IMG/VR virus record: IMGVR_UViG_3300021373_003070
Reading direction: 5' to 3' (one strand)
Length of the DNA stretch: 64,000 bases
DNA from: a virus
The stretch's first letter is position 1. Each line of letters begins with the position of its first letter. The translations under genes and the position numbers were made by a program. Shown piece by piece: positions 1-56,998 of this stretch. Under the pieces are notes generated by a model. That model searched no databases. It saw only the letters and a program-made list of their open reading frames with translations, and was not told the origin of the DNA.

Positions 1-810
1 ATCGCTGGTTGGAAACTCAAAGAATTGGTATATCATGATCCACTAAGAACGATTGGCGGAGTCACGATATACGAAGAACCTGAAGCAGAAAAAAAGTACG
101 TCATAACCGTCGATGTTAGTCGCGGCAAAGGACTTGACTATTCAGCATTTCAAGTAATCGATACCACTAAAATGCCGTATAGACAAGTTTGTACGTACAG
201 AAATAATATGATAACACCGGTTGATTATACTGCAGCTGTTCATAGAGCAGCTATGTTTTATAATCAAGCTTCAGTTATGGTAGAAATTAATGATATTGGT
301 GATCAAGTAGCAGGTATATTATTTGAAGAATATGAATATGAGAACATGCTATTAACGGAAAATAACGGCCGAGAAGGTAAAAGATTAATATCTGGTGTTG
401 CTGGTTTTAATGGAAGGGCAGATAAAGGTATAAGGACGACTAAACCTGTGAAGGCTTTAGGCTGTTCAATGCTAAAACTGTTAATCGAACAAAATCAGCT
501 TATAGTAAATGACTTCGAAACGATTAAAGAGCTATCTACCTTTAGTGCGAAAGGCACATCATATGAGGCCGAACCCGGCAATCATGATGATTTAACAATG
601 TGTTTAGTACTCTTTGGATGGCTCACAAATCAAAGATACTTCAAAGAATTGACTGATATAAATACGGTCATAAATCTGAAGGAAATGAACGAAGAGAAAG
701 TTTTTAGTGAATTGACGCCCTTCGGTTTGATAGATTCCGGGCATGAAAACTACGAAGATAAGGTGCCTGTGACTGTGAAAGGCGACGACGACTGGGGTTG
801 GCTGCGCTAA
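1..810 (+). CDS. gp17: Terminase large subunit, C-terminal nuclease part (5' truncated by window edge)
   Basis: Frame is open from position 1; motifs VDVSRGKGLDYSAF, VEINDIG and EAEPGNHDDLTMCL typical of T4 gp17; lies directly before the sheath gene. Confidence 0.95.
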   Translation: MAGWKLKELVYHDPLRTIGGVTIYEEPEAEKKYVITVDVSRGKGLDYSAFQVIDTTKMPYRQVCTYRNNMITPVDYTAAVHRAAMFYNQASVMVEINDIGDQVAGILFEEYEYENMLLTENNGREGKRLISGVAGFNGRADKGIRTTKPVKALGCSMLKLLIEQNQLIVNDFETIKELSTFSAKGTSYEAEPGNHDDLTMCLVLFGWLTNQRYFKELTDINTVINLKEMNEEKVFSELTPFGLIDSGHENYEDKVPVTVKGDDDWGWLR

Positions 811-22850: not shown

Positions 22851-23004
22851 AGCTTGGTTAGTATGGAAGTATGCCATCGGATCATTTTCTGATGACAAGA
22901 CTGAAAACTATGATGACATTGTGGCGATAATTAGGACACTGGTTGTGCTGGTTAACTTCGTCACATGTTTTTTTATTATGAGCAACGTGGTGCATAACTG
23001 GTGA
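22843..23004 (+). CDS. Small membrane protein (53 aa)
   Basis: WKYAIGSFSDDKT..YD..VAIIRT motif, familiar from marine T4-like phages; coupled overlaps. Confidence 0.7.
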   Translation: MSKAWLVWKYAIGSFSDDKTENYDDIVAIIRTLVVLVNFVTCFFIMSNVVHNW

Positions 23005-26404: not shown

Positions 26405-26818
26405 ATGAGTAACGATTGGGCATCAGACATTCGATCTATGCATGACAAATATGGTGTACACGAATGGGTACAGGAAAATCCAGAAAAGCTACGTGAGTTC
26501 CTACAGTTCCGAATGAAGTTTATACAAGAGGAATTTAGCGAGACGCTCGAAGCAATCATCAATAATGATCCTGAAGAAATGGTCGACGGTCTTATTGATC
26601 TATGTGTTGTAGCTATCGGCACAATGGATGCATTTGGTATCGATGCTCATAAAGCGTGGAACGAGGTCTTCGCTGCCAACATGGCGAAAGAACGTGGTGT
26701 AAAAGAAACACGTCCTAATCCTCTCGGTCTACCAGATCTGATCAAGCCAGAAGGATGGCAAACACCATCACATGCCGGCAATCACGGCCTACTGGCTGAG
26801 ATGTCACGATCGGAATAA
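26405..26818 (+). CDS. All-alpha (MazG-like) nucleoside triphosphate pyrophosphohydrolase; candidate dCTPase
   Basis: EEFSE...EEMVDGLIDL..V acidic motif; V..ANM.K and DLIKPEGW..P. Confidence 0.75.
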   Translation: MSNDWASDIRSMHDKYGVHEWVQENPEKLREFLQFRMKFIQEEFSETLEAIINNDPEEMVDGLIDLCVVAIGTMDAFGIDAHKAWNEVFAANMAKERGVKETRPNPLGLPDLIKPEGWQTPSHAGNHGLLAEMSRSE

Positions 26819-26854
26819 CCGATTAATTTTGTGTTTTTTTGCTGAAAATAAGTG

Positions 26855-26883
26855 TGTACTTTTTCTTGATTATGCTGTAGAAT
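26855..26883 (+). promoter_or_regulatory. Early-type promoter TGTACT-N17-TAGAAT
   Basis: Recurrent motif with ATGCTG before the -10. Confidence 0.7.
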
Positions 26884-26914
26884 AGACTAGTCAAATGGAA
26901 AAAGGTACACACTT

Positions 26915-27541
26915 ATGGCCTATTATTACGGCTCACTCAGAGACTCTCTGATCACAGAATGCCAGAACCAAGGCATGTCTCCATCTCATATCGAAAAGTA
27001 TGCCAAGTACTACATGGCAAAGCAGAGAGCTGCTCGAGGTGGCGGCCGTTCAAAGACTGGATATCAGGACTCCGATAAGACAAAAGTCTATCGTTCAGAG
27101 TGGGCATTTCAGTCAAAGGTTGACATCCGTCAATTCAAAGATATCGACGAAGCAACACAAAGATTCAAGCAAATCAAGAAGTCAAAGCTGTGGAGTCAGA
27201 TTGGTAAGCAATGCTATCTGATGGACAATCGCCGCATGGGTCGTGCTACTGCAGGTCGTGCACACGTTGGTGGTAAGATCGAGCTAGGTACAACAGGCAT
27301 GGATGAGTATACACTTATCCACGAAATGGCACATCAGACACATAACTCAATGCACCACGGTGTACAATTTCGTATCCACTTGTTAAAGTTAGTATCTAGA
27401 TTTATGGGACGAGAAGCACATGACATTCTCAAAGCAGAATTCAAAGAACGTAAGCTTAAGCTATCAATGCCTAAGCCACGTTCACCGGCTAGCTGGTTCA
27501 AATCATATCAACACATGCAAAAAGTAAGAGGTGAAGCATGA
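26915..27541 (+). CDS. Zincin-like (HExxH) protein
   Basis: LIHEMAH...HG..F motif. Confidence 0.65.
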   Translation: MAYYYGSLRDSLITECQNQGMSPSHIEKYAKYYMAKQRAARGGGRSKTGYQDSDKTKVYRSEWAFQSKVDIRQFKDIDEATQRFKQIKKSKLWSQIGKQCYLMDNRRMGRATAGRAHVGGKIELGTTGMDEYTLIHEMAHQTHNSMHHGVQFRIHLLKLVSRFMGREAHDILKAEFKERKLKLSMPKPRSPASWFKSYQHMQKVRGEA

Positions 27542-27879
27542 AAGAATCACTTAAAGTTTTACAAGAATGTGCTGAGGTACAAATCAAAAAGTCTAATGAC
27601 TATCAAAATGATTACTCTCGCATTCGTCAAGCAGACTACTATCCTCGTGGTGTAGCTACTATCACAGATCTCATCTATGCTAAAGTTCTTCGTATGCAAT
27701 CAGTCATCGAAGCTAGCGAACGTGATCCAGAATATACACCAAACTTCGAATCAATCGAAGATTCTGCTAAAGATCTAATCAACTATGCATCATTCGTTGT
27801 TGCATACATGCGTGGCCAAATGGATGGCCAAGAAACAAACCGTGACTTCCTTAATCGGGTGATTGATGATTCAGAATAA
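27538..27879 (+). CDS. Nucleotide-modification-associated domain protein (DUF1599/Nmad1-like)
   Basis: KKSNDY...K..R...ESIEDS..DLINYA pattern; adjacent to gp42. Confidence 0.65.
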   Translation: MKESLKVLQECAEVQIKKSNDYQNDYSRIRQADYYPRGVATITDLIYAKVLRMQSVIEASERDPEYTPNFESIEDSAKDLINYASFVVAYMRGQMDGQETNRDFLNRVIDDSE

Positions 27880-28543
27880 AGTACATGATATCCGTTCTTA
27901 TTTCAAAGAAGCTTTACACAAAGAACAATTCACAATTGACAAGACTGGTCAAAAGACTATCGAATTAATTGGTGCATCGTTTATTGCAGACGAGCCATCT
28001 ATCTTTGGTAGACCGGTTCAAAAGTATATCGATGCCGAGATCAATTGGTATATTTCTCAATCTACTAACATTCACGATATCTATGATGAAGGTAGAGCAC
28101 CACCTGAAGCTTGGAAGTATTCGGCAAATGAACACGGTGAGATCAACTCAAACTATGGCCATCTTATTTACAGTGAAAAGTATGGTAATCAATACCATCG
28201 TGTAATGCAAGAACTTCTCGCTCATCCGGATGGCCGACGTGCAACAATGATTTATAATCGTCCATCTATATGGAATGAATACAACGAGAATGGTAAGTCA
28301 GACTTTATTTGTACCAATGCTGTAACTTACTATGTACGTAATGGTAAACTCCACTGTGTGGTTCAGATGCGCTCTAACGATGTGGTTTTCGGTTACAAGA
28401 ATGACTATGCTTGGCAGAAATATATACTAGATATGTTGGCTTATGATATTTCTAGTCATCACACACAAATATTTTCTGGTGATATTATGTGGCAGGTTCA
28501 AAACCTTCACGTATACGAACGACACTTTAAATTGGTGGAATAA
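27863..28543 (+). CDS. gp42: dCMP hydroxymethylase (thymidylate synthase fold)
   Basis: Collinear with T4 gp42 as recalled: DKTG.KTIE.IGASF.ADEP.IFG, GEINSNYG, SDF.CTN (catalytic Cys), MRSNDVVFG..NDYAWQ with the dCMP-specifying Asp, LHVY.RHF. Confidence 0.9.
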   Translation: MMIQNKVHDIRSYFKEALHKEQFTIDKTGQKTIELIGASFIADEPSIFGRPVQKYIDAEINWYISQSTNIHDIYDEGRAPPEAWKYSANEHGEINSNYGHLIYSEKYGNQYHRVMQELLAHPDGRRATMIYNRPSIWNEYNENGKSDFICTNAVTYYVRNGKLHCVVQMRSNDVVFGYKNDYAWQKYILDMLAYDISSHHTQIFSGDIMWQVQNLHVYERHFKLVE

Positions 28544-29044
28544 ATGTGGATAATGTCCTCTCTTAGAATGATGTTTGTAGGTGCGCTGGCTTCGGCTGGT
28601 GTGCTTGCATATTTTTATTATGTTAATACTCAAGCTGAGTTAGAGTTACTACGCACTGAGATTGAACTATACGAAGTAAAGTTTGCCACACAAACTGAAA
28701 CTATTGATGAGCTAAGAGATGAAATACAAGCTCAAACTGAAAGGCTAAATACTTTAGCCATGGCAAATCAAGAAGCTGAAGTCGAGTTGAACAGATATCT
28801 TGATATTTTTAGACGACACAATTTGCAAAGGTTAGCGGCAGCTAAACCGGACTGGGTGTCGAATATTGTTAATAATGGAACGAAAGATGTATTTGACAGC
28901 ATTGAAGAAGTTAGTCGTGTTATCGACTCTATTGATGGTGACGGGGTGCAGTTGGCTCCATCCGAAGACGGAGATACAGATACAGACGAAACAGGTGAGA
29001 GTGCCAATAGCACAGCCGACACTTCCACGGGAACTGGATCTTAA
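28544..29044 (+). CDS. Putative inner-membrane spanin (Rz-like)
   Basis: N-terminal TM plus long coiled coil; overlaps a lipoprotein gene. Confidence 0.65.
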   Translation: MWIMSSLRMMFVGALASAGVLAYFYYVNTQAELELLRTEIELYEVKFATQTETIDELRDEIQAQTERLNTLAMANQEAEVELNRYLDIFRRHNLQRLAAAKPDWVSNIVNNGTKDVFDSIEEVSRVIDSIDGDGVQLAPSEDGDTDTDETGESANSTADTSTGTGS

Positions 29045-29267
29045 AGAACCAAAGTTCTACGTAGTATCGGATAAAAATCTCGACGATTTTCTCGTAGAAA
29101 TTGAGAAGCGTGCTGGTGGAATTGTATTCGTCGCCATCACTGTTGATGACTACGAACTGATGTCATATAACATGCAAGAGATTAAGCGCTATGTACAACA
29201 GATGAAATCTGTAGTAGTATATTACTATGATATCGTCGAAGACAACAATGCGAAGGCTGAAAAGTGA
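28887..29267 (+). CDS. Putative outer-membrane spanin lipoprotein (Rz1-like)
   Basis: Lipobox VTG-C at residue ~21 followed by a Pro-rich segment; overlaps the 3' end of the i-spanin in another frame. Confidence 0.65.
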   Translation: MYLTALKKLVVLSTLLMVTGCSWLHPKTEIQIQTKQVRVPIAQPTLPRELDLKEPKFYVVSDKNLDDFLVEIEKRAGGIVFVAITVDDYELMSYNMQEIKRYVQQMKSVVVYYYDIVEDNNAKAEK

Positions 29268-29899
29268 GAGTTGCGTATTACGTCAATGGTAGTATACGTA
29301 AGGTAAATCAAAACAATTTGCCATACGATCCTATTGATGTGCATACAGATTTTGCCAATAAGATTGGTGCAGATCTCGGAATGTCAACATGGGAAGTAAG
29401 TAGTGATCCAAAATCAATATCGCTTCAAGAGCTCATGGAATTGCCATTTGAGAGAAGTAAACAGCCGCCGGGTTATTATCCGGATTTGTTCTGGCAACAT
29501 GTAAATTATTGTGAATGGGCGGCATGCAATTATGAAGTATATGACGTATTAGTCAGAGGTCGTTGGGATAATATTTACAATGAAGATAACATCGACCTGA
29601 TCAGTGAAAGCATTACGGCGTGTTATACTGATAGAATGGCGTTTGGATTTTGCAACAGTCGATATCGAGCATTAGATGAATCACTCAAAAATATCAATGA
29701 TCATGTGATTATTCATCCAGCTAAATCGTTTGATCCGGATTTTACCTCAAATTTCTTTCGTACATTCACCGGCGTATGGGAAGAAATGGGACCAGTAAGA
29801 CAAAGTCAGCATGCTGCATGTAAAGCTGAACATATATGGTGGTGGCTACTATGTGGTCGAACAAATTTACCTTACAAGAATATTAGATTATCTGAATGA
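29264..29899 (+). CDS. Hypothetical glycosyltransferase-like protein (YD..VRxRxD family)
   Basis: YDVLVRGRWD and NDHVII; shares motifs with the 58142 and 60887 ORFs. Confidence 0.5.
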   Translation: MRVAYYVNGSIRKVNQNNLPYDPIDVHTDFANKIGADLGMSTWEVSSDPKSISLQELMELPFERSKQPPGYYPDLFWQHVNYCEWAACNYEVYDVLVRGRWDNIYNEDNIDLISESITACYTDRMAFGFCNSRYRALDESLKNINDHVIIHPAKSFDPDFTSNFFRTFTGVWEEMGPVRQSQHAACKAEHIWWWLLCGRTNLPYKNIRLSE

Positions 29900-31065
29900 T
29901 TGAAACTACAAAATATTATGATGAATTCATAAGGTACTTCAACTTAGCCTATAAACAGCAAGAGCTATGTAATGTATCTGATAAAGAACCTTATGGCATG
30001 GTCGCACATAAGGATTCGAATCTCGGTGATGATCTCATGGAGAATGTTGAATTATATGATGTAGTCGAACGCAAATATGCAGGCTTTTCTCAGATCATAA
30101 ATGATTGTTTTTATGGATGGACAGAAGATCATCCATATTGGAAAAAGATGCAGGCGGGCTTGTGTACCCGTCAACGAGAGACCGTCGCCAAAGACTGGAC
30201 CGGTAAACAAGACGTATTCTCTCTTCCTGAATGGCTCTATGTTTTTATCCTTCATAGAGTCACCGGTTCAGCAATTAACTATGCCCAGAAACCATCTGGG
30301 TATTTTAACACCATCCTCTTCAATCTCCATCAGTGTGATACAATAGAAGAGATGGTGCAGCTGGCGAAGCACTACCCGGTACCCTTCTATACCTCAGTCG
30401 GTTACCAGTTCCCAGCGTTTCCAAAACCAGTCGGCGACTATAAGAAAGGCGGTGATTATTACCTCGGTGAATTTGCCCCTCGATTAGCTCGCGATCTCGC
30501 GGACCATTTGACGATGGGTCCTCGCAAGGACCTTCGCGAGATTGGTGAGTTTATGCTGAAGTGGAATGAAGACAATGGTCTTCGACGCTATCAGTTTCAA
30601 TACGCAGCTGTAGTCGCTGACGTCGCCGACTGGTTTCCTCAATACGTTAACCGTGAAAGCATGTTCTATTACGGTACAAATGCAGTAGAATGTATCTCTT
30701 ACTTGGCTAAACCTGTCAAGAAGATGAAAAAAGAGTTGTTCCTTGATGCCGTCATGACGAAAATATATGATGATACAGGAAGTGTACCATATAATGCTGA
30801 AGATGTATGTTGCGACTTCATTCGTTATGTTGAAAATTATGTTCGCCCTGGTCCGGAATATAATCATTTAGATTATGATAATCTGTGGTCGTCATGCGGC
30901 ATCAAGGATCACCCTTATGGAAGACAGAAATATATGTTGGATATGGGGTTGATAGAAACTTTTAATGGCATGAAAAATCATCCATCTGATGATGCAATTC
31001 TAAAAAATAATGAAATGACTGTTGAAGAGTACCAACGTAATGTCGCTAACTTACTTTCTAGGTGA
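29896..31065 (+). CDS. aGPT-PPlase1/5-HMUDK-like helical (HhH-glycosylase-fold) DNA-modification protein, copy 1
   Basis: F.YA.VVAD.......G.NA...I..L and a C-terminal N.EDVCCDF.RY resemble the family's E..LC.F.KY motif. Confidence 0.55.
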   Translation: MIETTKYYDEFIRYFNLAYKQQELCNVSDKEPYGMVAHKDSNLGDDLMENVELYDVVERKYAGFSQIINDCFYGWTEDHPYWKKMQAGLCTRQRETVAKDWTGKQDVFSLPEWLYVFILHRVTGSAINYAQKPSGYFNTILFNLHQCDTIEEMVQLAKHYPVPFYTSVGYQFPAFPKPVGDYKKGGDYYLGEFAPRLARDLADHLTMGPRKDLREIGEFMLKWNEDNGLRRYQFQYAAVVADVADWFPQYVNRESMFYYGTNAVECISYLAKPVKKMKKELFLDAVMTKIYDDTGSVPYNAEDVCCDFIRYVENYVRPGPEYNHLDYDNLWSSCGIKDHPYGRQKYMLDMGLIETFNGMKNHPSDDAILKNNEMTVEEYQRNVANLLSR

Positions 31066-32032
31066 ACACGAAAATGATATCCAATATCAGAACATTGCTG
31101 AGGTGGATTACAAAAACGGCAAACCTACGTCGTCGTGGTTAAAAGGTTGGTGTCAAGAAGCTCGAACTGAAAAGTTTTTCGAGTTCTGTCGTGGCTACGA
31201 TGCACGTCAAGACTTTTTACTAAAGAACAACTATCAACAATTCTCACATCGATTGCACTGGCACGAATGTCCTTTTGTTGACGAGATGGCACAAGAGAAA
31301 GACAGAGTCAAGGTACTCGAAGCATGCGTTCTCTTCTCATTTAGCAACGAGCATTGGCAAACATTCAGAGCATGGCGTGATCATGGTCAAGACGGTATGA
31401 GAGTAAGATTTACAAGCTATCGTCATGCTCGTAGCGATCTGTTTCAGATCTACTATCCAAAAGATACGAAGGTCAAAGACTGGCTCATCGAAGCGCCAGC
31501 TCGTATTGCACTTGAGCTCGATTCATTATTCGATGGCATGCGTAGACCGTTCACGATGATGGAATTTGCCAAAAAAATGAACATCATCATGGTCCGCGAT
31601 TTTGGTTTTCGTAATGCCATGTACCCGTCAAAGAATGCAGCGCGACATGTAGCGATGAGCCATCCTGAGTGGGTTGATCCTGACTCGTTCTTACATGGTG
31701 GTACAGGATACTTCGATGGTTTGTCGCAGATCTTTGACTGTCCACATCTTATGTCAAGATCAAAGTATGAGATTGATGAGGATGGTGAATACGTACCGAT
31801 GAATAAATGGGCAGAGATGCAGATCCAACACATGGACTATCTCAAAAATCATCCTAGCAATCCTATTCATACACATCAGTATCTCAACTTAGAAGACAAG
31901 CTATGTATGCATTACAAGTTTATGTCAATGAAGCTAGGTTCTAAAAAGCAAACAAAGATGATACCATATAACTGGGTGTATCCAGAGAATTGGTCTCTTA
32001 AAACAAATAGGTATGATCGTGGCACACAATAA
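31040..32032 (+). CDS. aGPT-PPlase1/5-HMUDK-like protein, copy 2
   Basis: D.LL..NY..F..R, P.WVDPDS...GTG...GL..IF, NLEDKLC...K; paralogous to the upstream ORF. Confidence 0.5.
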   Translation: MSLTYFLGEHENDIQYQNIAEVDYKNGKPTSSWLKGWCQEARTEKFFEFCRGYDARQDFLLKNNYQQFSHRLHWHECPFVDEMAQEKDRVKVLEACVLFSFSNEHWQTFRAWRDHGQDGMRVRFTSYRHARSDLFQIYYPKDTKVKDWLIEAPARIALELDSLFDGMRRPFTMMEFAKKMNIIMVRDFGFRNAMYPSKNAARHVAMSHPEWVDPDSFLHGGTGYFDGLSQIFDCPHLMSRSKYEIDEDGEYVPMNKWAEMQIQHMDYLKNHPSNPIHTHQYLNLEDKLCMHYKFMSMKLGSKKQTKMIPYNWVYPENWSLKTNRYDRGTQ

Positions 32033-32903
32033 TCATGTAATCGATGGCGTCAACAAAGACGTAGGAGTTTTTGGCTATGAAGCAGCAAAAGAATACTACT
32101 TATCTCTCACTGAAGGATGGGAACCATTCAATCCAGATCCCGTTGTCCGTGAACATGAAGGAGTACGGGTCGTTAGAGATGACCTTATCATGGGGACAAA
32201 ATCGCGAGCTGGCGATCTCCTTGCCTTCAAAGCCCCTGCCGAAACGTTGGTATACTGTCAGCCAAGGACTGGACTCGCTGGGGTATCGTTATTAGATGTA
32301 GCTAAACATCACAATCGTAAGGTTGTCTTGTTTATGCCATCATCAAAGAGAGTATCACATCATCAGGCATGTTGTATAGAACGTGGAGCAGAAGTGCATT
32401 TCCATCGTATTGCAGCGATGCCAAATCTTAACAAAAAGGCAAAAGAATATGCAGAAAAACATGGATACTTTTTCATCCCTCTTGGTCTTAGACACGAGTA
32501 CGCTACCGCCGCAATTGTACACGCAGCTAGTAAAATACCTGAGCCAGATGAAGTGTACGTTGCTACTTCGACTGGAGTTCTCAATCGCGCTCTTCAAATT
32601 GCATGGCCAAATGCTCGTATCAATGGTATTGCCGTCGCTCGTAACATGAAGGCCGGCGAGCTAGGTCGATCTACCATTACATCAGAACCTTTGCCATTCA
32701 TAAAAGCAGAGAAGAAAGAAAATCTACCACCGTTCCCGTCCATCGACACATATGATGGTAAGGTGTGGAAATACATTCCAAAAAATAGTGGTAAAAATAT
32801 ACTTTTTTGGAATGTAGGTACTGAACCTAGTTTACAAGATGATACAATCTATGATAGAATAGATTCATATCGCGATTGGGAGAAAAATAATGCATCAGCG
32901 TAG
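32013..32903 (+). CDS. Fold-type II PLP-dependent enzyme (ACC deaminase/D-Cys desulfhydrase-like)
   Basis: VRDDL..GTKSR (Schiff-base Lys), YFFIPLG, V..STGV phosphate loop, D.YDGK, LFWNVG. Confidence 0.8.
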   Translation: MIVAHNNHVIDGVNKDVGVFGYEAAKEYYLSLTEGWEPFNPDPVVREHEGVRVVRDDLIMGTKSRAGDLLAFKAPAETLVYCQPRTGLAGVSLLDVAKHHNRKVVLFMPSSKRVSHHQACCIERGAEVHFHRIAAMPNLNKKAKEYAEKHGYFFIPLGLRHEYATAAIVHAASKIPEPDEVYVATSTGVLNRALQIAWPNARINGIAVARNMKAGELGRSTITSEPLPFIKAEKKENLPPFPSIDTYDGKVWKYIPKNSGKNILFWNVGTEPSLQDDTIYDRIDSYRDWEKNNASA

Positions 32904-33993
32904 TGGATTAGTAGCAACACCTTTTATTACAATCTCACGCCAATTAAGTAGCCATAGAGCTGCGCAAGGTGTTATATATGCCGATCAATTACAAGAAGCT
33001 AACGTTGGCCAGATTAAAGTCAACATGACAGGGGACCAATACGAAAGTGAATTCAGTAATTATGATGACCTGTATGTATATCATGGCAATGATTGGAGTG
33101 GCAATATTAATCTTTTTGGCGGTCTCAATAATTTCCCTTATATTGAAAACTTTGTCAATTTCTCTAGATTTACTGGTAAAGTGTATTCCCTTGTTATTGA
33201 TATGCCTGATTATTATGGCCTTATGAAAGAGAAGTTCGACAAGGCTAAAGAAAAAGGCAAAGAATGGAATCCTTTATGGGATGGCATCGATTGGGATAAT
33301 CTCAAACGAATGTGTGAAACTGCCGAAACGATTGTGCCTAACGAACTACACAAATTTACAAAAATGTCTGTCGGTGATAGTCATGCAATATGCATGTATC
33401 GCCCGGGCTGGAACAATCTATCCGTACCATTCAAGACATTACACGGCGCATTGAAAGAAGGACTCGAATCATTTCTCGAAGATAGAACATATACACATCT
33501 AGAATTTTACTTTGGCAACATCGATGTAAGACATCACCTTTGTCGTCAAGATGATCCTGTAGCTGCCACACGACAACTCGTTGCAGAGTATATGAAGCAG
33601 GCTCATGCCATTGCACAGAAGTATAATTGCAAAATTCGTATCTACGAACTCCTGCCAATCGAAGCAGAAACACGATCTATTCCAAAAACTGGTTGGTATA
33701 AAGGTACGCCGTTCTATGGCTCTCGTCAAGAGAGAAATGATATTCGCAAGTTGTTCAAAGAAGAAGTAAGAAAGAGATGCACAGACGAGGTGCAACTTTA
33801 CGAGTGGATTGGTGAGATGGTTAACTCGAGAGGTGAACTCGATTTTGAGTTTATGGAACGACCTCAGTCAGTACATTTATCTCGTCGTTGGTATCCACAT
33901 TGGCAAGGCTATCAGTGGAGTCACGCTCCGTATGTTGAATATATACCTACAGCAGAGCGAGAAACAACTACACTTGAGGATTTTTTTAGCTAA
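32890..33993 (+). CDS. Two-domain protein: BGT-N-like domain fused to an SGNH-like domain
   Basis: N-terminal NYDDLYV...INLFGG...GKVYSLVID; C-terminal GDSH, FGNID, SVHL blocks. Confidence 0.5.
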   Translation: MHQRSGLVATPFITISRQLSSHRAAQGVIYADQLQEANVGQIKVNMTGDQYESEFSNYDDLYVYHGNDWSGNINLFGGLNNFPYIENFVNFSRFTGKVYSLVIDMPDYYGLMKEKFDKAKEKGKEWNPLWDGIDWDNLKRMCETAETIVPNELHKFTKMSVGDSHAICMYRPGWNNLSVPFKTLHGALKEGLESFLEDRTYTHLEFYFGNIDVRHHLCRQDDPVAATRQLVAEYMKQAHAIAQKYNCKIRIYELLPIEAETRSIPKTGWYKGTPFYGSRQERNDIRKLFKEEVRKRCTDEVQLYEWIGEMVNSRGELDFEFMERPQSVHLSRRWYPHWQGYQWSHAPYVEYIPTAERETTTLEDFFS

Positions 33994-35201
33994 TGAAGCA
34001 TGCGACTATTATTCCATTAATTGGAGGTGAAGTGCTCGCCTCCGAAAAGGTGTTCGGCCATAAGCCGGATTATATCCTATCATATAATGCGTTTCAAGCA
34101 AACGAAGAGCACCTACTAAATTATTGGAATCATGAGGTACCGTACTACGTACTCGACGAAGGGGATCGCCACCCCCATCCCGTAGACGTAGTGTCCAGTG
34201 TATGTCCTTGTGCTGGCTTGTCATTGTTCAGCACGCGTTATGGAGAGGACAACAAAAACAATCGCTGGATGATTGAAACGGCTAAGTACGTTCTTGGCGA
34301 GATCAAGCCTCTTGTATTTTGGGGAGAGAATGCCCCAACCTTCACCGGTAAAATCGGTGCACCAATTCGAAATCAACTTATCGAAGTTGGTAAAGAACAC
34401 GGTTATGTTATGTCAATGTTTAAGACAAAAAGTCTTTTGCACGGCATACCACAAACACGCGAACGTACATTCTACTTCTTCTGGAAAGGAGACAAGGTAC
34501 CAGTGTTTGACTACTATCGTAGAGACATGACATCAATCGAAGATCTTATACTGAGTGTCGATCGTGATCCTAAGGATCCGATGTCTGAAGTCATTAATAG
34601 AACCAAACCAACAGACAATCCTTTCTACAAATATTTACTTGAGGAGATTCACGGTGGAATATCTCATCGCGATCATTTTGATTCCATTGATGTGCGGGAC
34701 CCTTCAACTCCTAATTATCTTGATGTATATAGCCTCATTGAAAGCCATAAACACGACTACGTCCGTGTTGGAAAATGGCTGGAAAATAAAGGCTATGACC
34801 GCGAATCGAAGCGAGCTTATCGAATGTATGATAAGTTGGAGTCAGGTGGTAATATTATGCGCCGCGGCACTATTCTGCCTAAAGGTCATATCGGATCATT
34901 TGTAGGTCACTATCCTCAGATGCTAACACATCCACATGAAGATCGATACATTACATTTCGAGAAGCAATGACAATCATGGGTCTGCCTGAAGATTATCAG
35001 CTTCTCAATCCTCGTGGTAGCTTCAATCATATATGTCAGAATGTACCTTATCAGACAGCTGTAGATATGGCTACCGAAGTAAAGGCAGCAATCGAAGGTC
35101 AACGACCATGGGTTGATGCTAACGTTTCTTTGCAGCAAAACACATCTAAAAAGTTTGAAATTTTAGACAAAGAAGAATCTACACTTGAATCATTTTTCTA
35201 G
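33993..35201 (+). CDS. DNA cytosine-C5 methyltransferase-like protein with atypical motif I
   Basis: PCAGLS (IV), GENAP (VI), PQTRERTF (VIII), R.IT.REA..IMGLP (IX), QNVP (X); motif I reads IPLIGG instead of FxGxGG. Confidence 0.8.
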   Translation: MKHATIIPLIGGEVLASEKVFGHKPDYILSYNAFQANEEHLLNYWNHEVPYYVLDEGDRHPHPVDVVSSVCPCAGLSLFSTRYGEDNKNNRWMIETAKYVLGEIKPLVFWGENAPTFTGKIGAPIRNQLIEVGKEHGYVMSMFKTKSLLHGIPQTRERTFYFFWKGDKVPVFDYYRRDMTSIEDLILSVDRDPKDPMSEVINRTKPTDNPFYKYLLEEIHGGISHRDHFDSIDVRDPSTPNYLDVYSLIESHKHDYVRVGKWLENKGYDRESKRAYRMYDKLESGGNIMRRGTILPKGHIGSFVGHYPQMLTHPHEDRYITFREAMTIMGLPEDYQLLNPRGSFNHICQNVPYQTAVDMATEVKAAIEGQRPWVDANVSLQQNTSKKFEILDKEESTLESFF

Positions 35202-35230
35202 TGTACATTCTTGTCCACATGCTGTACAAT
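35202..35230 (+). promoter_or_regulatory. Early-type promoter TGTACA-N17-TACAAT
   Basis: Recurrent motif. Confidence 0.7.
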
Positions 35231-35259
35231 TTATAAATCTTATCGAATATAGGTAAACT

Positions 35260-36237
35260 ATGGAAATCAATGTACCAGTCGAAGAACTTCGCCAATATAA
35301 GGTGATGATTGGCACACCAATGTACGGGGCTCAATGCTCAGGTATGTACACGCGATCGATGGCAGAGTTAACAACTACGATGCAGCGATATGGTGTTCCG
35401 ATGCAATTTTATTTCTTGTTCAATGAATCTCTTATTACTCGAGCACGTAACTATTGTGTTGATGAGTTTATGCGATCTGATTGCACGCATCTTATGTTCA
35501 TCGATTCTGACATCTCATTTAAAGCACAAGATGTACTATCGATGCTAGCTATTATGCATCAACGACAAGAAATGGATGTGTGTTGTGCACCATATCCGAA
35601 GAAGACAATTGCATGGGAAAAAATTACTCAGGCTGTCAAGAGTGGTGTCGCTGACGAAGATCCAAATGTCCTCGAAAATTTTGTTGGTGATTATGTCTTC
35701 AATCCAATCAGACCCAAAGAAAAGGGTGAACACTTTATCAAGTTATCAGAACCAACCGAAGTAGCAGAAGGTGGTACTGGTTTTATGATGATCAAGCGAG
35801 AAACGTTTGACAAGTATAAAGAAACATATCCACAATTTATGTATCGACCAGATCATGTTCGAACTGCACATTTTGATGGTTCAACAGAAATCATGGCATA
35901 TTTCGATGCATTGATTGATGATAAATCACAGAATCTAATACCTGAAATAAAAGCATTCTTTAAGAAGAATCCGAATGCTAAGAACAATGATGTCGTCAGG
36001 TTCCTTGAAGATAAGACAAAGGGTATCGATCAGAAGCAATACTCGAATCGATACCTGTCAGAAGATTACATGTTTTGTTATAATGTAAGACGTGCAGGAA
36101 TGAAAGTATTCATGTGTCCTTGGATGGAATTGAAACATATGGGTGCATACGTATTCGGTGGTTCTCTTGCAGCTCTCGCATCAGTTGGTGCAGCGGCTAC
36201 AGCGGATCCTGAAAAACTTGGAAAGAAAAAAGGATAA
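35260..36237 (+). CDS. GT-A fold glycosyltransferase
   Basis: TPMYG, ESLITRARN, LMFIDSD (DxD), GTGFMMI, YLSEDY.FC. Confidence 0.8.
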   Translation: MEINVPVEELRQYKVMIGTPMYGAQCSGMYTRSMAELTTTMQRYGVPMQFYFLFNESLITRARNYCVDEFMRSDCTHLMFIDSDISFKAQDVLSMLAIMHQRQEMDVCCAPYPKKTIAWEKITQAVKSGVADEDPNVLENFVGDYVFNPIRPKEKGEHFIKLSEPTEVAEGGTGFMMIKRETFDKYKETYPQFMYRPDHVRTAHFDGSTEIMAYFDALIDDKSQNLIPEIKAFFKKNPNAKNNDVVRFLEDKTKGIDQKQYSNRYLSEDYMFCYNVRRAGMKVFMCPWMELKHMGAYVFGGSLAALASVGAAATADPEKLGKKKG

Positions 36238-36245
36238 ATTATATT

Positions 36246-36899
36246 ATGAAACTCAACCAACGCTCGGTACAAATTCTCAAGAATTTTTCTACCATTAATC
36301 CGTCAATTCAGTTTCGAGAAGGTAATGCTCTCAAGACTATTTCGCCAAACAAAACCATTATGGCGAAAGCAGTTCTCGAAGATCAGATTCCACAAGACTT
36401 TGCAATCTATGACTTGTCGCGATTCTTAGGAGTGTCATCTTTGTTCGAAGATCCTGATTATGTACTCGCTGATCGCAATGTTGTGATTGCGGCACCGGGA
36501 CGACAGGTAAGTTATACTTTCGCTGATCCTAATACGATCGTGTCAGCTCCAAACAAAGACATTGATATTGGTGATGTCGATGTGCAGTTCGAACTGAAGC
36601 AAGAAGTATTTGCCGAAGTAATGAAAGCACTCGGTGTGATGAGCTTTCCTGAAGTTGTAGTTGCAGGCGAAAATGGTCGAATTGTTTTACGCGCAACTGA
36701 TACGAAGAATCCATCAGCAGATAAATATGACATTGAAGTTGGTGAAACAGATCTTGAATTCACCTCTGTCTTCAAATCCGAGAATCTCAAAATCTTATCT
36801 GGCAACTATGTTGTTGGTATCTCATCGAAAGGTATCTCACACTTCCGCGGTGATGATGTAGAATATTGGATCTCGATCGAATCGAACTCTGCTTTTTAA
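36246..36899 (+). CDS. gp45: Sliding clamp
   Basis: ILKNFSTINPSI, FAIYDLSRFL, ENLKI..G.Y. Confidence 0.95.
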   Translation: MKLNQRSVQILKNFSTINPSIQFREGNALKTISPNKTIMAKAVLEDQIPQDFAIYDLSRFLGVSSLFEDPDYVLADRNVVIAAPGRQVSYTFADPNTIVSAPNKDIDIGDVDVQFELKQEVFAEVMKALGVMSFPEVVVAGENGRIVLRATDTKNPSADKYDIEVGETDLEFTSVFKSENLKILSGNYVVGISSKGISHFRGDDVEYWISIESNSAF

Positions 36900-36901
36900 T
36901 A

Positions 36902-36919
36902 TAGGGGCGTAAGCCCCTA
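36902..36919 (+). terminator. GC hairpin after gp45, probable terminator
   Basis: TAGGGGC-GTAA-GCCCCTA; weak U-tract. Confidence 0.55.
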
Positions 36920-36930
36920 AATTATTTTGA

Positions 36931-36938
36931 TATAAATA
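36931..36938 (+). promoter_or_regulatory. Late promoter TATAAATA
   Basis: Exact consensus heading the 37.0-39.6 kb operon. Confidence 0.75.
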
Positions 36939-54445: not shown

Positions 54446-56998
54446 ATGACTAAATTTTATACTAATATCGATCAGCACGGTTCGCAGATACTCGTACGTG
54501 GCTATAATGAAGATGGCACACCTTTTCAACATAAAGAGAGATACGAACCTTATTTGTTTATGCGATCTCAGGTTGAGACCGGTTACACAGATATTTATGG
54601 TAATCATGTCAAACGCATGGACTTTCCTAACATCGGCGAAGCCAAGCAGTTTCGCAAGAAATACGAAGACGTTGAAGGTGTAGACATCTACGGTCTTGAA
54701 CGATATAAGTGTGTCTATATTTATGACAACTTTCGAAATCAAGTACCTGATACATCACGTATCAACATTGTCAACATAGATATCGAGGTTGCATCCGATG
54801 ATGGTTTTCCAGAACCTGAAGATGCCGACAAAGAAGTAACAGCCATTGGCTTACGAGATCGTACTAAAACAGTTGTGCTTGGTTGTGGTGAATTTAAACA
54901 TGACGATCCTAATACCTACTACGTAAAGTGTAAGAACGAGATTGAGCTACTCGATAAGTTCTTGAACATATGGCAGCATATGAATCCTGACGTAGTCACA
55001 GGTTGGAACACAGAATTCTTTGATATTCCATATCTTGTCCATCGCATTGCAAAGTGTGGTGCACTTGGCGAAGAAGCACTTAAAAGATTTTCTCCATGGA
55101 ATCTGCCACTACGTAAAGGTAGTGTGTTTCGGCCTGGCAGCGACAAAGCTTCAACGACATATCGCATCATCGGTGTAGCAAGTCTTGATTATCTGTCAAT
55201 CTACAAAAAGTTTAGATTGCAACCGCGTGAATCATACAAGCTCGATTTCATTGCCGAGACAGAACTTGGTACCAAAAAGATTGACTATAGCGAGTATGGC
55301 AATCTACACGAGTTGTACAAAAACAACTATCAAAAGTTTATCGAATACAACATTCGAGATATTGATCTGATCTTTGATCTCGAAGAAAAGCTAGGTTTCA
55401 TCGAACAAGTATTTACTGTCGCATATGATGCTGGCGTCAACTATGAAGACACGCTCGGTTCGGTAGGCATATGGGATGTGATTATTCACAACTATCTCAT
55501 GGACCAAAACATTGCGGTGTCAGACAAAGTCAACGCCATATCAGATAGACAGATCGAAGGTGGTTACGTCAAAGAACCAATCGTTGGCATGCACAAGTGG
55601 GTGATGTCATTTGACCTCAACTCGCTGTATCCTCACTTAATTCAACAATACAACATATCACCTGATACAGGTCTCAATAAGTTTGACGACCTCTTTCATA
55701 TTACTTCGCGTGCATCAGTCGACAATATCTTATCAGAAGAAATTGACTTTAGCGAATTAAAATCTTACAACGTAACCATGACACCGAATGGCAAGATCTA
55801 TCGACGTGATCGTCAAGGCTTCTTACCTGCATTGATGAAGAAGATGTATGATGATCGTGTATTGTACAAGAAGAAGATGTTGGAATGCAAACAAGAAGCA
55901 ATCAAGAATCCAAGCCGACAACTTGAGATTGACATCTCTCGCTATCACAACTTACAACACGCCAAAAAGATTCAGCTAAACTCAGCTTATGGTGCACTTG
56001 CCAACAAATACTTCAGATGGTTCGATAACGAGAATGCCGAGGCTATCACCATGGCTGGTCAGTTGTCTATTCGTTGGATCGAAAAGAAGATCAACATATG
56101 GTTGAATGACATACTCAAAACCAAAGGTCGTGACTACGTCATAGCGATCGATACCGATTCAGTATATGTGTCATTCGATAAGATGATCGAACTTACCAAT
56201 CCAAAGAATCCTGTTGAATTTCTTGACAAGGTGGCACAGCAACAAGTCGAACCATTCATCGATAAGTCTTATCGTGAGCTAGCCGATTATCTCAATGCAT
56301 ATGATCAGAAGATGATTATGAAACGAGAAAACATCGCTGATAAGGCAATCTGGACTGCCAAGAAGCGATACATCATGAACGTATGGGACTCTGAAGGTGT
56401 ACGATACGAAAAGCCAGATCTCAAGATGATGGGTATCGAGGCCATTCGATCAAGTACACCAGCGGTATGTCGTGATTACATTAAGAATACGTTGCAGCTT
56501 ATCATGTCAACCAGTGAAGCTGATGTGCAAAAATATATTGCTCACATTCGCGAAGAGTTCCGCACATTACCATTCGAAAAAGTTGCATTCCCTCGATCAT
56601 GTAACTTCGTAAAGTGGCAAACAAACTCACATACAGGTCAGCGATATCCATCTACATATGCTGATGATAAGACAATCTACAAGAAAGCAACACCTATTCA
56701 AGTCAAAGGTGCTCTACTATACAACTGGTACTTACATAAATATAACTTGACAAAGAAGTATGAACTCATAAAATCAGGCGAGAAAATTAAGTTTTGTTAT
56801 CTACGAAAACCAAACTCATTTCGAGATTCGGTTGTTTCGTGTCCTGATATTTTGCCATCGGAGTTTGGCTTGGAACAGTATATCGATTACGATACACAAT
56901 TCGTAAAAGGTTATCTCGATCCAATTGAAATCATACTACATGCAATCGGTTGGAAGTCTGAAAAGATTTCTACATTGGAGGACTTTTTCAGTGACTAA
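54446..56998 (+). CDS. gp43: Family B DNA polymerase
   Basis: DIEV (exo I), SFDLNSLYP, KIQLNSAYG, IDTDS, KKRY; uninterrupted. Confidence 0.98.
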   Translation: MTKFYTNIDQHGSQILVRGYNEDGTPFQHKERYEPYLFMRSQVETGYTDIYGNHVKRMDFPNIGEAKQFRKKYEDVEGVDIYGLERYKCVYIYDNFRNQVPDTSRINIVNIDIEVASDDGFPEPEDADKEVTAIGLRDRTKTVVLGCGEFKHDDPNTYYVKCKNEIELLDKFLNIWQHMNPDVVTGWNTEFFDIPYLVHRIAKCGALGEEALKRFSPWNLPLRKGSVFRPGSDKASTTYRIIGVASLDYLSIYKKFRLQPRESYKLDFIAETELGTKKIDYSEYGNLHELYKNNYQKFIEYNIRDIDLIFDLEEKLGFIEQVFTVAYDAGVNYEDTLGSVGIWDVIIHNYLMDQNIAVSDKVNAISDRQIEGGYVKEPIVGMHKWVMSFDLNSLYPHLIQQYNISPDTGLNKFDDLFHITSRASVDNILSEEIDFSELKSYNVTMTPNGKIYRRDRQGFLPALMKKMYDDRVLYKKKMLECKQEAIKNPSRQLEIDISRYHNLQHAKKIQLNSAYGALANKYFRWFDNENAEAITMAGQLSIRWIEKKINIWLNDILKTKGRDYVIAIDTDSVYVSFDKMIELTNPKNPVEFLDKVAQQQVEPFIDKSYRELADYLNAYDQKMIMKRENIADKAIWTAKKRYIMNVWDSEGVRYEKPDLKMMGIEAIRSSTPAVCRDYIKNTLQLIMSTSEADVQKYIAHIREEFRTLPFEKVAFPRSCNFVKWQTNSHTGQRYPSTYADDKTIYKKATPIQVKGALLYNWYLHKYNLTKKYELIKSGEKIKFCYLRKPNSFRDSVVSCPDILPSEFGLEQYIDYDTQFVKGYLDPIEIILHAIGWKSEKISTLEDFFSD

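What the first reader, a model, noticed from the sequence alone, without database searches (positions are those of the whole stretch)
26405..36237. Candidate new DNA hypermodification pathway built on hydroxymethylcytosine
Seen: one co-oriented, tightly coupled island encoding a MazG-type NTP pyrophosphatase, a DUF1599-like protein, a gp42-type hydroxymethylase, two paralogous aGPT-PPlase1/5-HMUDK-like proteins, a fold-II PLP enzyme, a BGT-N/SGNH fusion, a C5-MTase homologue and a GT-A glycosyltransferase next to gp45. The hydroxymethylase has Asp at the position equivalent to TS Asn177 (RSNDVVFGYKND). Established: that Asp makes T4 gp42 dCMP-specific; HMUDK plus amino-acid transfer plus a PLP enzyme is the logic of THYMINE (hmU) hypermodification in ViI, M6 and phiW-14-like phages; T-even hmC is glucosylated by alpha/beta glucosyltransferases, and no full-length version is visible here. 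Inference: this phage makes hmC-DNA and decorates it by phosphorylation, amino-acid or acyl transfer and PLP chemistry. I do not know of that combination being described.
Basis: partly seen in the sequence, partly recalled or inferred. Interest (0 to 1): 0.92.

Follow-up and report, generated by a model that had tools for sequence, protein, structure and literature searches.

The report
Kinase-less hydroxymethylcytosine hypermodification module
This T4-like environmental phage carries a true dCMP hydroxymethylase followed by a widely conserved gene set that probably turns hydroxymethylcytosine in its DNA into a chemically undescribed, non-sugar base, using relatives of thymine-hypermodifying enzymes but with a glucosyltransferase/esterase hybrid where the usual DNA kinase would be.

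Summary
The stretch is composite.

**Conserved core (seven genes, kept in order in about 80 IMG/VR contigs):**
- MazG-like pyrophosphatase and DUF1599.
- A genuine gp42 dCMP hydroxymethylase (T4 gp42, E 9e-69; Asp179 kept).
- A PALP-type PLP enzyme.
- A protein joining a T4 BGT acceptor-like domain to an SGNH domain.

**Supporting links:**
- The SGNH protein and the transferase are fused in other phages, including cultured Aeromonas phages 44RR/31/25. Those phages have gp42 but no glucosyltransferase.
- The SGNH protein and the C5-methyltransferase end in the DNA polymerase's clamp-binding-type tail.

**Not core:**
- The C5-methyltransferase is present in 6 of 80 loci.
- The GT-A-like gene also occurs in phages that lack the module.

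Best reading: a post-replicative, non-sugar hmC hypermodification whose chemistry is unknown. The scan found the same module earlier on other DNA (e1-5698750). No paper describing it turned up in my searches.

The parts
26405..26818 (+). MazG/PRA-PH-type NTP pyrophosphatase (core). Candidate dCTPase, a functional analogue of T4 gp56.
   Evidence: PF01503 4.5e-11. phrog_671 'nucleotide pyrophosphohydrolase' 1e-23. Present in 42 related loci just upstream of DUF1599 and gp42.
26915..27541 (+). SprT-like HExxH ORF. An insertion, not part of the core.
   Evidence: PF10263 0.0017, below cut-off. Present in only 4 of 82 loci.
27538..27879 (+). DUF1599 ('nucleotide modification associated domain 1'), core.
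   Evidence: PF07659 5.5e-5. phrog_18404 matches MazG at profile positions 49-140 and this ORF at 173-252, so fused forms exist. Present in 46 loci.
27863..28543 (+). gp42 dCMP hydroxymethylase orthologue, core.
   Evidence: PDB 1b49 8.9e-69, with Asp179, catalytic Cys and D169 kept and L143 changed to D. The same residues occur in all 51 linked homologues whose alignment covers these positions.
28544..29267 (+). Rz-like i-spanin (28544-29044) with an overlapping o-spanin (28866-29267). Unrelated to DNA modification.
   Evidence: phrog_739 2e-11. phrog_812 2.8e-13. Lipobox LVTGC. Found in only 1 related locus.
29264..29899 (+). 211-aa ORFan, function unknown, not conserved.
   Evidence: No Pfam or PHROG hit. 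No homologue in 82 loci.
29896..31065 (+). 389-aa AADT/HMUDK_hel-fold protein with E302..C306 (ExxxC). Putative Cys-dependent group transferase acting at C5-CH2 of hmC.
31022..32032 (+). 336-aa distant paralogue of the 389-aa protein (probable start at 31040), with E291..C295. Optional in about a fifth of loci.
   Evidence: hhalign A3 against A1: 95.8%, E 7e-9, aligning ED..C. ESM neighbours scoring 0.96 carry HMUDK_hel/ADDT. Present in 62 of 82 loci.
32013..32903 (+). Divergent PALP (fold-type II) PLP-enzyme homologue with invariant K63, core.
   Evidence: phrog_7093 6e-35. Homologues in Microcystis phage Mae-JY30 and Erythrobacter phage R6L hit PF00291 above cut-off. ESM neighbours carry PALP. 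Present in 72 loci.
32890..33993 (+). 367-aa protein: BGT-acceptor-like N-domain (about residues 1-150), SGNH domain (about 150-354) and a C-terminal TLEDFF tail. Putative hmC-DNA acyl-transferase or esterase, core.
33993..35201 (+). C5-cytosine methyltransferase homologue with a STLESFF tail. Accessory.
   Evidence: PF00145 1.2e-15. PC, ENA and QTRER motifs against 3g7u. Present in 6 of 82 loci, all with the tail.
35260..36237 (+). GT-A-like protein (DSD motif). A neighbour of gp45, not module-specific.
   Evidence: phrog_1574 2e-61 and a weak glycosyltransferase hit. Homologues in DLP6, phiN3, cyanophages and pelagiphage.
36246..36899 (+). gp45 sliding clamp, the proposed docking platform.
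   Evidence: PF09116 4.9e-15.
36902..36919 (+). Terminator-like hairpin that ends the unit. The first T4-type late promoter, TATAAATA, follows at 36931.
   Evidence: No TATAAATA occurs between 17998 and 36931.
54446..56998 (+). gp43 DNA polymerase. Its C-terminus STLEDFFSD carries the tail shared with the modification enzymes.
   Evidence: PF00136 and PF03104. 30% identity to T4 gp43, E 2e-117, where the T4 tail is SLDFLFG.

Best explanation
The core of the stretch is a mobile seven-gene module for hypermodifying cytosine through 5-hydroxymethylcytosine.

**Pre-replicative steps**
- The hydroxymethylase step is shown by homology; the pyrophosphatase step is inferred from context.
- The MazG-like pyrophosphatase, working with DUF1599, supplies dCMP and depletes dCTP.
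- The gp42 orthologue makes hm-dCMP, which is polymerised into DNA.

**Post-replicative steps (inferred)**
1. The BGT-N/SGNH protein rides on the gp45 clamp through its polymerase-like tail. Its BGT-like domain binds the flipped hmC. Its intact Ser-His SGNH site derivatises the 5-CH2OH, most likely by O-acylation. This takes the place of the P-loop 5-hmU DNA kinase of the thymidine pathways.
2. The HhH-fold transferase (389 aa), with or without its 336-aa paralogue, attacks C6 with the ExxxC cysteine. It expels the leaving group, or water, to form an exocyclic methylene, and then adds an amine or hydroxyl nucleophile such as an amino acid.
3. The PALP enzyme tailors the appended group on DNA.

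The product would be a non-glycosyl 5-substituted-methylcytosine of unknown structure. The C5-MTase is an optional, clamp-tethered add-on. The GT-A-like gene, the spanins, the SprT-like ORF and the ORFan are bystanders.
For: - **hmC synthesis:** the gp42 match to 1b49 is 8.9e-69 with Asp179. The same signature is present in all 51 linked homologues that could be read at those positions. D169 is kept, so this is not a 5-hydroxy-dCMP synthase by the criterion of PMC13326640.
- **One module:** the order mazG-DUF1599-gp42-389-(336)-PLP-SGNH recurs in about 80 IMG/VR loci. It sits either beside gp45 or between gp43 and uvsX.
- **Fusions:** BGT-N/SGNH is fused to the AADT-like domain in seven metagenome proteins and in Aeromonas 44RR ORF233c.
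- **Cultured phages without glucosyltransferases:** 44RR, 31 and 25 have gp42 and gp56 but no glucosyltransferase (PMC2993671). I found no BGT or AGT family match in 44RR.
- **Catalytic motif:** PUGT's catalytic residues are Glu243 and Cys247, an ExxxC spacing (PMC11472151). The same spacing is nearly invariant in both paralogue families.
- **SGNH site:** the catalytic blocks are invariant.
- **BGT-N likeness:**
- **PLP enzyme:** PALP assignment.
- **Clamp tail:** among 1385 ORFs of at least 100 aa in 82 loci, the L[EDA]xF[FLM] tail occurs only in gp43 (23 of 24), BGT-N/SGNH (35 of 68), MTase (6 of 6) and PLP (4 of 67).
- **Timing:** no late promoter lies inside the unit.
Against: - No chemistry has been observed. 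The product, the donor and the order of steps are all inferred.
- The equivalence of C306 to Cys247 rests on range offsets, not on a superposition.
- The Asp equivalent to BGT D100 is kept in only 33 of 54 homologues.
- About half of the BGT-N/SGNH homologues lack a clear clamp tail.
- 44RR-type phages lack the PLP enzyme, so the pathway is not uniform.
- SGNH enzymes are usually hydrolases, so acyl transfer is a guess.
Confidence: 0.6

Rival explanations
1. The BGT-N/SGNH protein alone makes the final modification, for example an O-acyl ester of hmC. The HhH-fold paralogues are non-catalytic DNA-binding or base-flipping partners, or readers.
For: The SGNH site is invariant. PatB-type O-acetyltransferases are among its fold matches. 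The 44RR-type phages carry only the fusion, without the PLP enzyme. The 336-aa paralogue is dispensable in about a fifth of loci.
Against: The ExxxC motif, which matches the catalytic Glu/Cys of PUGT, is nearly invariant in both paralogue families and is kept in the 44RR fusion as EIACC. A PLP enzyme co-occurs in 72 of 82 loci, which implies an amino-acid-like adduct.
Confidence: 0.15
2. The module acts before replication on free hydroxymethyl-dCMP or -dCTP rather than on DNA.
Against: Polymerase-type clamp tails are found on the SGNH protein, the MTase and some PLP homologues, and on nothing else except gp43. The nearest characterised relatives, PUGT and BGT, act on DNA. In other phages a PALP homologue is fused to an N6_N4 DNA methylase.
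Confidence: 0.08
3. The HhH-fold proteins are DNA glycosylases or lyases used for repair, host-DNA degradation or anti-restriction. Their linkage to gp42 reflects discrimination between C-DNA and hmC-DNA, not hypermodification.
Against: The best match is the transferase PUGT. The conserved Cys/Glu motif is typical of AADT rather than of HhH-GPD glycosylases. The proteins are constantly linked or fused to an SGNH enzyme and a PLP enzyme.
Confidence: 0.07
4. The accessory C5-MTase homologue is itself an hmC-derivatising enzyme. It would attack C6 covalently and condense a thiol or amine onto the carbon, as C5-MTases do in vitro, adding a second modification in the few phages that carry it.
For: The catalytic PC, ENA and QxRxR motifs are intact. 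C5 would already be occupied in hmC DNA. A clamp tail is present in all 6 homologues. Its position inside the module is always the same.
Against: It is present in only 6 of 82 loci. Homologues occur in cyanophage S-TIM5 and in a Pseudoalteromonas phage, where no match to the module's transferase or BGT-N/SGNH protein was found. It could simply methylate residual C or host DNA. Motif I is only mildly deviant (IPLIGG).
Confidence: 0.1

Closest known systems
Thymidine hypermodification pathways of phages M6, ViI, PaMx11, PhiW-14 and SP10: dUMP hydroxymethylase, 5-HMUDK kinase, aGPT-Pplase/AADT and PLP or other tailoring enzymes (PMC8989533, PMC11472151)
   Same: A TS-family hydroxymethylase makes a 5-hydroxymethylpyrimidine that is polymerised into DNA. 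A frequently paired HhH-fold transferase carries a Glu-x3-Cys motif. A PLP enzyme is linked. The genes are clustered.
   Different: The base is cytosine, because the TS homologue has the gp42 Asp179 signature. There is no P-loop kinase, and a BGT-N/SGNH protein occupies that role, sometimes fused to the helical domain. The transferases fall below the Pfam thresholds and show no profile similarity to PaMx11 gp46. The PLP enzyme is a very divergent PALP.
T-even hmC glucosylation: gp56, gp42, alpha- and beta-glucosyltransferases
   Same: Orthologous gp42 (about 51% identity). A pyrophosphatase supplies dCMP. The N-domain of the 367-aa protein resembles the hmC-DNA acceptor domain of T4 BGT.
   Different: The UDP-glucose-binding domain is absent and is replaced by an SGNH domain. 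No AGT or BGT family member was found in the closest near-complete relative. BGT D100 is not strictly conserved.
5-hydroxy-dCMP synthase / arabinosyl-5hoC pathway of RB69 and DLP3 (PMC13326640)
   Same: A T4-like phage with a dCMP-specific TS homologue that lacks the classical glucosyltransferases.
   Different: The diagnostic D169N change is absent here (SND is retained), so the product should be hydroxymethyl rather than hydroxy. No NDP-arabinose genes were seen.
Aeromonas phage 44RR2.8t ORF233c (NP_932588, phrog_17781), uncharacterised
   Same: It combines a BGT-N/SGNH half (E 1.7e-47 to the 367-aa protein) with an HMUDK_hel-like half bearing an ExxCC motif. It sits in a gp42-positive, glucosyltransferase-negative phage.
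   Different: It is a single fused polypeptide. Its C-terminal half is too diverged to match the 389-aa family profile. That genome has no PLP partner.

Membership tests
T4 gp42 dCMP hydroxymethylase (TS superfamily) | Full-length similarity to solved gp42, far above classical TS | tested here: met
   1b49 scores 8.9e-69, against about 1e-7 to 1e-10 for thymidylate synthases.
T4 gp42 dCMP hydroxymethylase (TS superfamily) | Asp at TS N177 (T4 Asp179), catalytic Cys, an acidic residue at TS L143, and D169 retained (not the D169N of 5hodCMP synthases) | tested here: met
   SDFIC and MRSNDVVFGYKND motifs. Criteria taken from PMC13326640. The residues are the same in 51 linked homologues.
Amino acid:DNA transferase / aGPT-Pplase (PF18724; HMUDK_hel PF18723) | Pfam profile match above the curated cut-off | tested here: not met
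   The window proteins gave no hit even at E 10 or E 1. PF18723 found nothing in the closest relative genome. Only 1 of 66 family members hits PF18724, at 1e-3.
Amino acid:DNA transferase / aGPT-Pplase (PF18724; HMUDK_hel PF18723) | Two-bundle HhH glycosylase-like fold closest to a solved AADT | tested here: met
Amino acid:DNA transferase / aGPT-Pplase (PF18724; HMUDK_hel PF18723) | Essential Cys with a nearby Glu (PUGT Glu243/Cys247) | tested here: inconclusive
   E302..C306 and E291..C295 are nearly invariant and align with each other. Structural equivalence to Cys247 is only inferred, from the ranges 9..317 and 8..258, which give an offset of 59.
Amino acid:DNA transferase / aGPT-Pplase (PF18724; HMUDK_hel PF18723) | Works on 5-phosphomethyl-dU made by a linked P-loop 5-hmU DNA kinase | tested here: not met
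   No island protein has a Walker A motif or a kinase family hit. The linked hydroxymethylase is of the dCMP type.
SGNH/GDSL hydrolase superfamily | SGNH fold with block I GDS(x), block III GxND and block V His | tested here: met
T4 beta-glucosyltransferase (PF09198, GT-B) | N-terminal acceptor (hmC-DNA) domain | tested here: inconclusive
   Foldseek 1qkj 3.9e-4, probability 0.98, but rmsd 15. hhalign 60%, E 8.6e-5 over 66 columns. PF09198 E 0.009 on the homologue in G001. The D100 equivalent is kept in 33 of 54 sequences.
T4 beta-glucosyltransferase (PF09198, GT-B) | C-terminal UDP-glucose-binding Rossmann domain | tested here: not met
   Residues 150-354 are SGNH. The tblastn match of T4 BGT covers only BGT residues 53-101.
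PALP, fold-type II PLP enzymes (PF00291) | Profile match and a Schiff-base lysine | tested here: inconclusive
   The window protein has no Pfam hit. Its phage homologues (tblastn 6e-21 and 3e-26) hit PF00291 at 46 and 41 bits against a cut-off of 35. K63 is invariant. The match to cysteine synthase is weak, at 0.014-0.04.
C5-cytosine DNA methyltransferase (PF00145) | Profile match with motifs IV (PC), VI (ENx) and VIII (QxRxR); motif I FxGxG | tested here: met
   1.2e-15. The alignment to 3g7u shows PC, ENA and QTRER. Motif I reads IPLIGG, so SAM binding was not tested.
GT-A glycosyltransferase | Profile match and a DxD motif | tested here: inconclusive
   GT21 0.0011, below cut-off. phrog_34859 3.3e-5. 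A DSD motif is present. There is no PDB sequence match.

The most novel reading that the evidence does not exclude
Aquatic T4-like phages, and the cultured Aeromonas phages 44RR, 31 and 25, make the first amino-acid- or amine-type hypermodified cytosine by a kinase-independent route. A clamp-tethered enzyme, built from the hmC-binding domain of beta-glucosyltransferase and an SGNH acyltransferase, esterifies hmC in DNA. A cysteine-dependent HhH-fold transferase then swaps the ester for an amino acid, and a PLP enzyme remodels that amino acid on the polymer.
Probability: 0.35. Interest if true: 0.9.

Novelty: new variant of a known kind. Interest (0 to 1): 0.8.

Why it matters
- **A gap in cytosine chemistry.** All characterised viral cytosine hypermodifications built on hmC or hoC are glycosylations, or in one metavirome case a carbamoylation. 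Amino-acid-type chemistry is known only for thymine. This module would extend that chemistry to cytosine and would show a second way of activating the 5-hydroxymethyl group without a DNA kinase.
- **Abundance.** The transferase has about 930 protein clusters at 90% identity, and the BGT-N/SGNH protein about 980. At least 588 IMG/VR contigs carry a relative. The unknown base may therefore be common in aquatic viromes, where it could bias sequencing and affect restriction and CRISPR sensitivity.
- **An old open question.** It offers a concrete answer to what gp42-positive, glucosyltransferase-negative T4 relatives such as 44RR, 31 and 25 do with their hmC. The question is directly testable because those phages are in culture.
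- **Tool value.** The enzymes could serve for selective chemical tagging of 5hmC.

Tried and rejected
- **Close relatives among phage records.** Megablast of the island against phage records found nothing. tblastn of the 389-aa protein against phages found nothing, so no cultured close relative is known.
- **PDB sequence searches.** Searches with the 389-aa, 336-aa and 367-aa proteins and with profile A1 gave no meaningful hit.
- **Comparison with PaMx11 gp46.** hhalign of A1 and A3 against a single PaMx11 gp46 sequence was not significant. HMMs of A1 and A3 found nothing in the PaMx11 region, the M6 region or the 44RR region. The M6 record carries no annotation.
- **Paralogy with shallow alignments.** Pairwise BLASTP of the two paralogues gave only E 0.008. 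hhalign with shallow alignments gave only 8%. The deeper profile was needed.
- **Complex prediction.** The complex prediction for the 367-aa and 389-aa proteins returned no verdict. It counts neither way.
- **Whole genome.** No whole genome is held for the window. I used the closest IMG/VR record, G001, which is 91% complete.
- **Tenacibaculum phage PTm5.** It carries only an SGNH-half homologue, among RNR genes, and was uninformative.
- **Literature.** Iyer et al. 2013 could not be retrieved. Searches for an hmC plus AADT pathway, and for experimental data on Aeromonas phage DNA, found nothing.
- **5-hydroxy-dCMP synthase.** Considered and rejected, because D169 is retained.
- **GT-A and MTase as core pathway genes.** Rejected on their distribution.

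Full report
**Context**

The window is part of a T4-like phage.
- gp47 lies at 23001-24056, gp46 at 24492-26192, gp45 at 36246-36899 and gp43 at 54446-56998.
- The closest cultured gp46 is that of Stenotrophomonas phage DLP6 (51%), followed by cyanomyoviruses (about 46%).
- No phage record matches the island at the nucleotide level.
- The stretch 26405-36237 carries thirteen + strand ORFs, most of them overlapping or abutting.
- No T4-type late promoter (TATAAATA) lies between 17998 and 36931. A terminator-like hairpin at 36902-36919 closes the unit after gp45.

**The hydroxymethylase**

- The 226-aa product of 27863-28543 matches solved T4 dCMP hydroxymethylase at E 8.9e-69. Classical thymidylate synthases score about 1e-7 to 1e-10.
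- The aligned motif MRSNDVVFGYKNDYAWQKY differs from T4's only by two conservative changes (Y for F, K for R) and includes Asp179.
- In the residue code set out in PMC13326640:
  - N177D indicates dCMP specificity.
  - L143D/E indicates a hydroxymethyl rather than a methyl product.
  - A retained D169 argues against a 5-hydroxy-dCMP synthase.
- The protein meets all three. So do all 51 TS homologues linked to the module in related contigs whose alignment covers these positions.

**Which genes belong together**

I searched metagenome proteins with the 389-aa product of 29896-31065 and found 929 clusters, none with a Pfam domain.

In the 80 best loci plus two contigs from another collection, the order mazG-DUF1599-gp42-389-(336)-PLP-SGNH recurs. 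Some loci have SGNH before PLP. The module sits either beside gp45, as here, or between gp43 and uvsX.

| Gene | Loci with a homologue |
|---|---|
| 389-aa transferase (the query) | 82 |
| PLP enzyme | 72 |
| BGT-N/SGNH protein | 71 |
| 336-aa paralogue | 62 |
| gp42 | 52 |
| DUF1599 | 46 |
| MazG | 42 |
| GT-A-like | 20 |
| C5-MTase | 6 |
| SprT-like | 4 |
| Spanins | 1 |
| 211-aa ORF | 0 |

- Many of these loci are truncated, so the counts are lower bounds.
- GT-A-like homologues also occur in DLP6, Sinorhizobium phiN3, Ochrobactrum, cyanophages and a pelagiphage. None of these gave a match to the 389-aa or 367-aa protein.
- MTase homologues occur in cyanophage S-TIM5 and a Pseudoalteromonas phage.
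- ORFs 28544-29044 and 28866-29267 are an Rz/Rz1-type spanin pair.

**The two transferase-like proteins**

- An alignment of 66 diverse relatives gave an AlphaFold model of the 389-aa protein with pLDDT 97.
- Foldseek found only weak HhH glycosylase and PUGT rows.
- An independent shape search of the ESM Atlas found viral clusters at TM 0.6-0.73, some of which carry PF18723 HMUDK_hel or PF18724 ADDT, or are named amino acid:DNA transferase.
- One of 66 family members hits PF18724 at 1e-3.
- The 336-aa protein is a distant paralogue. Profile-profile comparison gives 95.8%, E 7e-9. Its language-model neighbours, scoring 0.96, carry HMUDK_hel/ADDT.
- PUGT uses Cys247 as the C6 nucleophile, with Glu243 and Thr244 at the metal site (PMC11472151). 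M6 gp51 and ViI gp247 need the equivalent Cys and Glu (PMC8989533).
- Both paralogue families keep the same Glu-x3-Cys spacing nearly invariant: E302..C306 and E291..C295. The profile alignment superposes the two motifs.
- The ranges of the PUGT alignment (9..317 against 8..258) imply an offset of 59. That would place C306 on Cys247. This is an inference, not a superposition.
- Neither window protein reaches a Pfam threshold, and neither shows profile similarity to PaMx11 gp46. I therefore file them as working like an AADT and belonging to the same fold superfamily, not as members of the curated families.

**The BGT-N/SGNH protein and the fusions**

- The model of the 367-aa protein has pLDDT 90.
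- The GDSH, GNID and SxH blocks are invariant in 54 homologues.
- Three weak, independent lines link the N-domain to T4 beta-glucosyltransferase:
  - Foldseek 1qkj at 3.9e-4.
  - hhalign at E 8.6e-5 over BGT residues 29-100.
  - Pfam PF09198 at E 0.009 on the orthologue in the closest relative genome.
- The residue aligned to BGT's catalytic D100 is Asp in only 33 of 54 sequences, so I do not rely on it.
- In seven metagenome proteins of 640-790 aa, an N-terminal 367-like half is fused to a C-terminal 389-like half.
- The same architecture (phrog_17781) is ORF233c of Aeromonas phage 44RR2.8t. Its C-half weakly hits HMUDK_hel (0.0036) and keeps an E..CC motif.
- Petrov et al. (PMC2993671) noted that 44RR, 31 and 25 encode gp42 and gp56 but no glucosyltransferase. 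I confirmed gp42 in 44RR and found no BGT or AGT family match there.
- The domain order [BGT-N/SGNH]-[HMUDK_hel] mirrors [P-loop kinase]-[HMUDK_hel] of the 5-hmU DNA kinases. No island protein has a Walker A motif.
- This is the basis for proposing that the SGNH protein replaces the kinase.

**The PLP enzyme**

- 32013-32903 matches phrog_7093 (6e-35) and, only weakly, cysteine synthases.
- Its homologues in Microcystis phage Mae-JY30 and Erythrobacter phage R6L pass the PALP gathering score. In R6L the PALP domain is fused to an N6_N4 DNA methylase.
- K63 is invariant.
- 44RR has no homologue, so this step is tailoring specific to one clade.

**Evidence that the enzymes work on DNA**

- gp43 of this phage ends in STLEDFFSD. 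T4 gp43 ends in SLDFLFG, its known clamp-binding tail (my own knowledge).
- The 367-aa protein ends in TTLEDFFS and the MTase in STLESFF.
- Among 1385 ORFs of at least 100 aa in 82 loci, a C-terminal L[EDA]xF[FLM] occurs only in four families: gp43 (23 of 24), the BGT-N/SGNH family (35 of 68), the MTase (6 of 6) and the PLP enzyme (4 of 67). It occurs in no other family.
- About half of the loci have no clear tail on either enzyme.

**Mechanism**

- Shown by homology: dCMP is converted to hm-dCMP.
- Inferred from context: MazG and DUF1599 act as the dCTPase. Fused forms of the two exist in phrog_18404.
- Inferred by analogy:
  1. A clamp-tethered SGNH step derivatises the hmC hydroxyl.
  2. 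A Cys-dependent step substitutes at the C5 methylene.
  3. A PLP step tailors the product.
- The identity of the adduct is unknown.

**Prior work**

The scan has seen this module before on other DNA. A follow-up (e1-5698750) reached the same "kinase-less cytosine hypermodification" reading. My analysis is independent of it, but it is not independent evidence. I found no paper in the held library that describes the pathway.

**Verdict**

The core logic holds. Phosphorylation is unsupported, and the MTase and the GT-A-like gene are not core.
- I classify the module as a new variant of the known hydroxymethylpyrimidine hypermodification systems.

Noticed in passing
window 54446-56998, 32890-33993, 33993-35201; loci L001-L083: The C-terminal tail (S/T)LE(D/S)FF is shared by the DNA polymerase, the BGT-N/SGNH protein and the C5-MTase. 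In one clade the PLP enzyme has it too. Among 1385 ORFs in 82 loci it occurs in no other family, which suggests a set of clamp-tethered DNA-modifying enzymes.
   Followed up: partly
window 28544-29267: An Rz-like i-spanin with an overlapping lipoprotein o-spanin (lipobox LVTGC) sits between gp42 and the transferase genes. It is present in only one related locus.
   Followed up: partly
window 26915-27541: A SprT-like ORF with an HEMAH zinc-protease motif lies between MazG and DUF1599. It is found in only 4 related loci.
   Followed up: no
window 29264-29899: A 211-aa ORF with no Pfam or PHROG hit and no homologue in any of the 82 related loci. It overlaps the next gene by 4 nt.
   Followed up: partly
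L088 3759-6188 (Erythrobacter phage R6L gp1); L087 5207-6798 (Microcystis phage Mae-JY30): A PALP domain homologous to the module's PLP enzyme is fused to an N6_N4 DNA methylase in R6L. In Mae-JY30 it lies next to a protein annotated ParB/sulfiredoxin that hits the N6_N4 DNA methylase family. This may be another uncharacterised PLP-dependent DNA modification.
   Followed up: no
L003 6399-10379 (Aeromonas phage 44RR2.8t): The fused ORF233c lies directly downstream of a phage-encoded sodium:solute symporter homologue (ORF234c). This could import a substrate for the modification.
   Followed up: no
L001 9191-9607 and 17675-18352: In the clade where the module sits between gp43 and uvsX, a dCMP deaminase lies inside the module and a ThyX gene lies nearby.
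   Followed up: no
window 36902-36938: A strong terminator-like hairpin lies right after gp45, followed by the first T4-type late promoter (TATAAATA) since 17998. It marks the boundary between the replication/modification unit and a late unit.
   Followed up: partly
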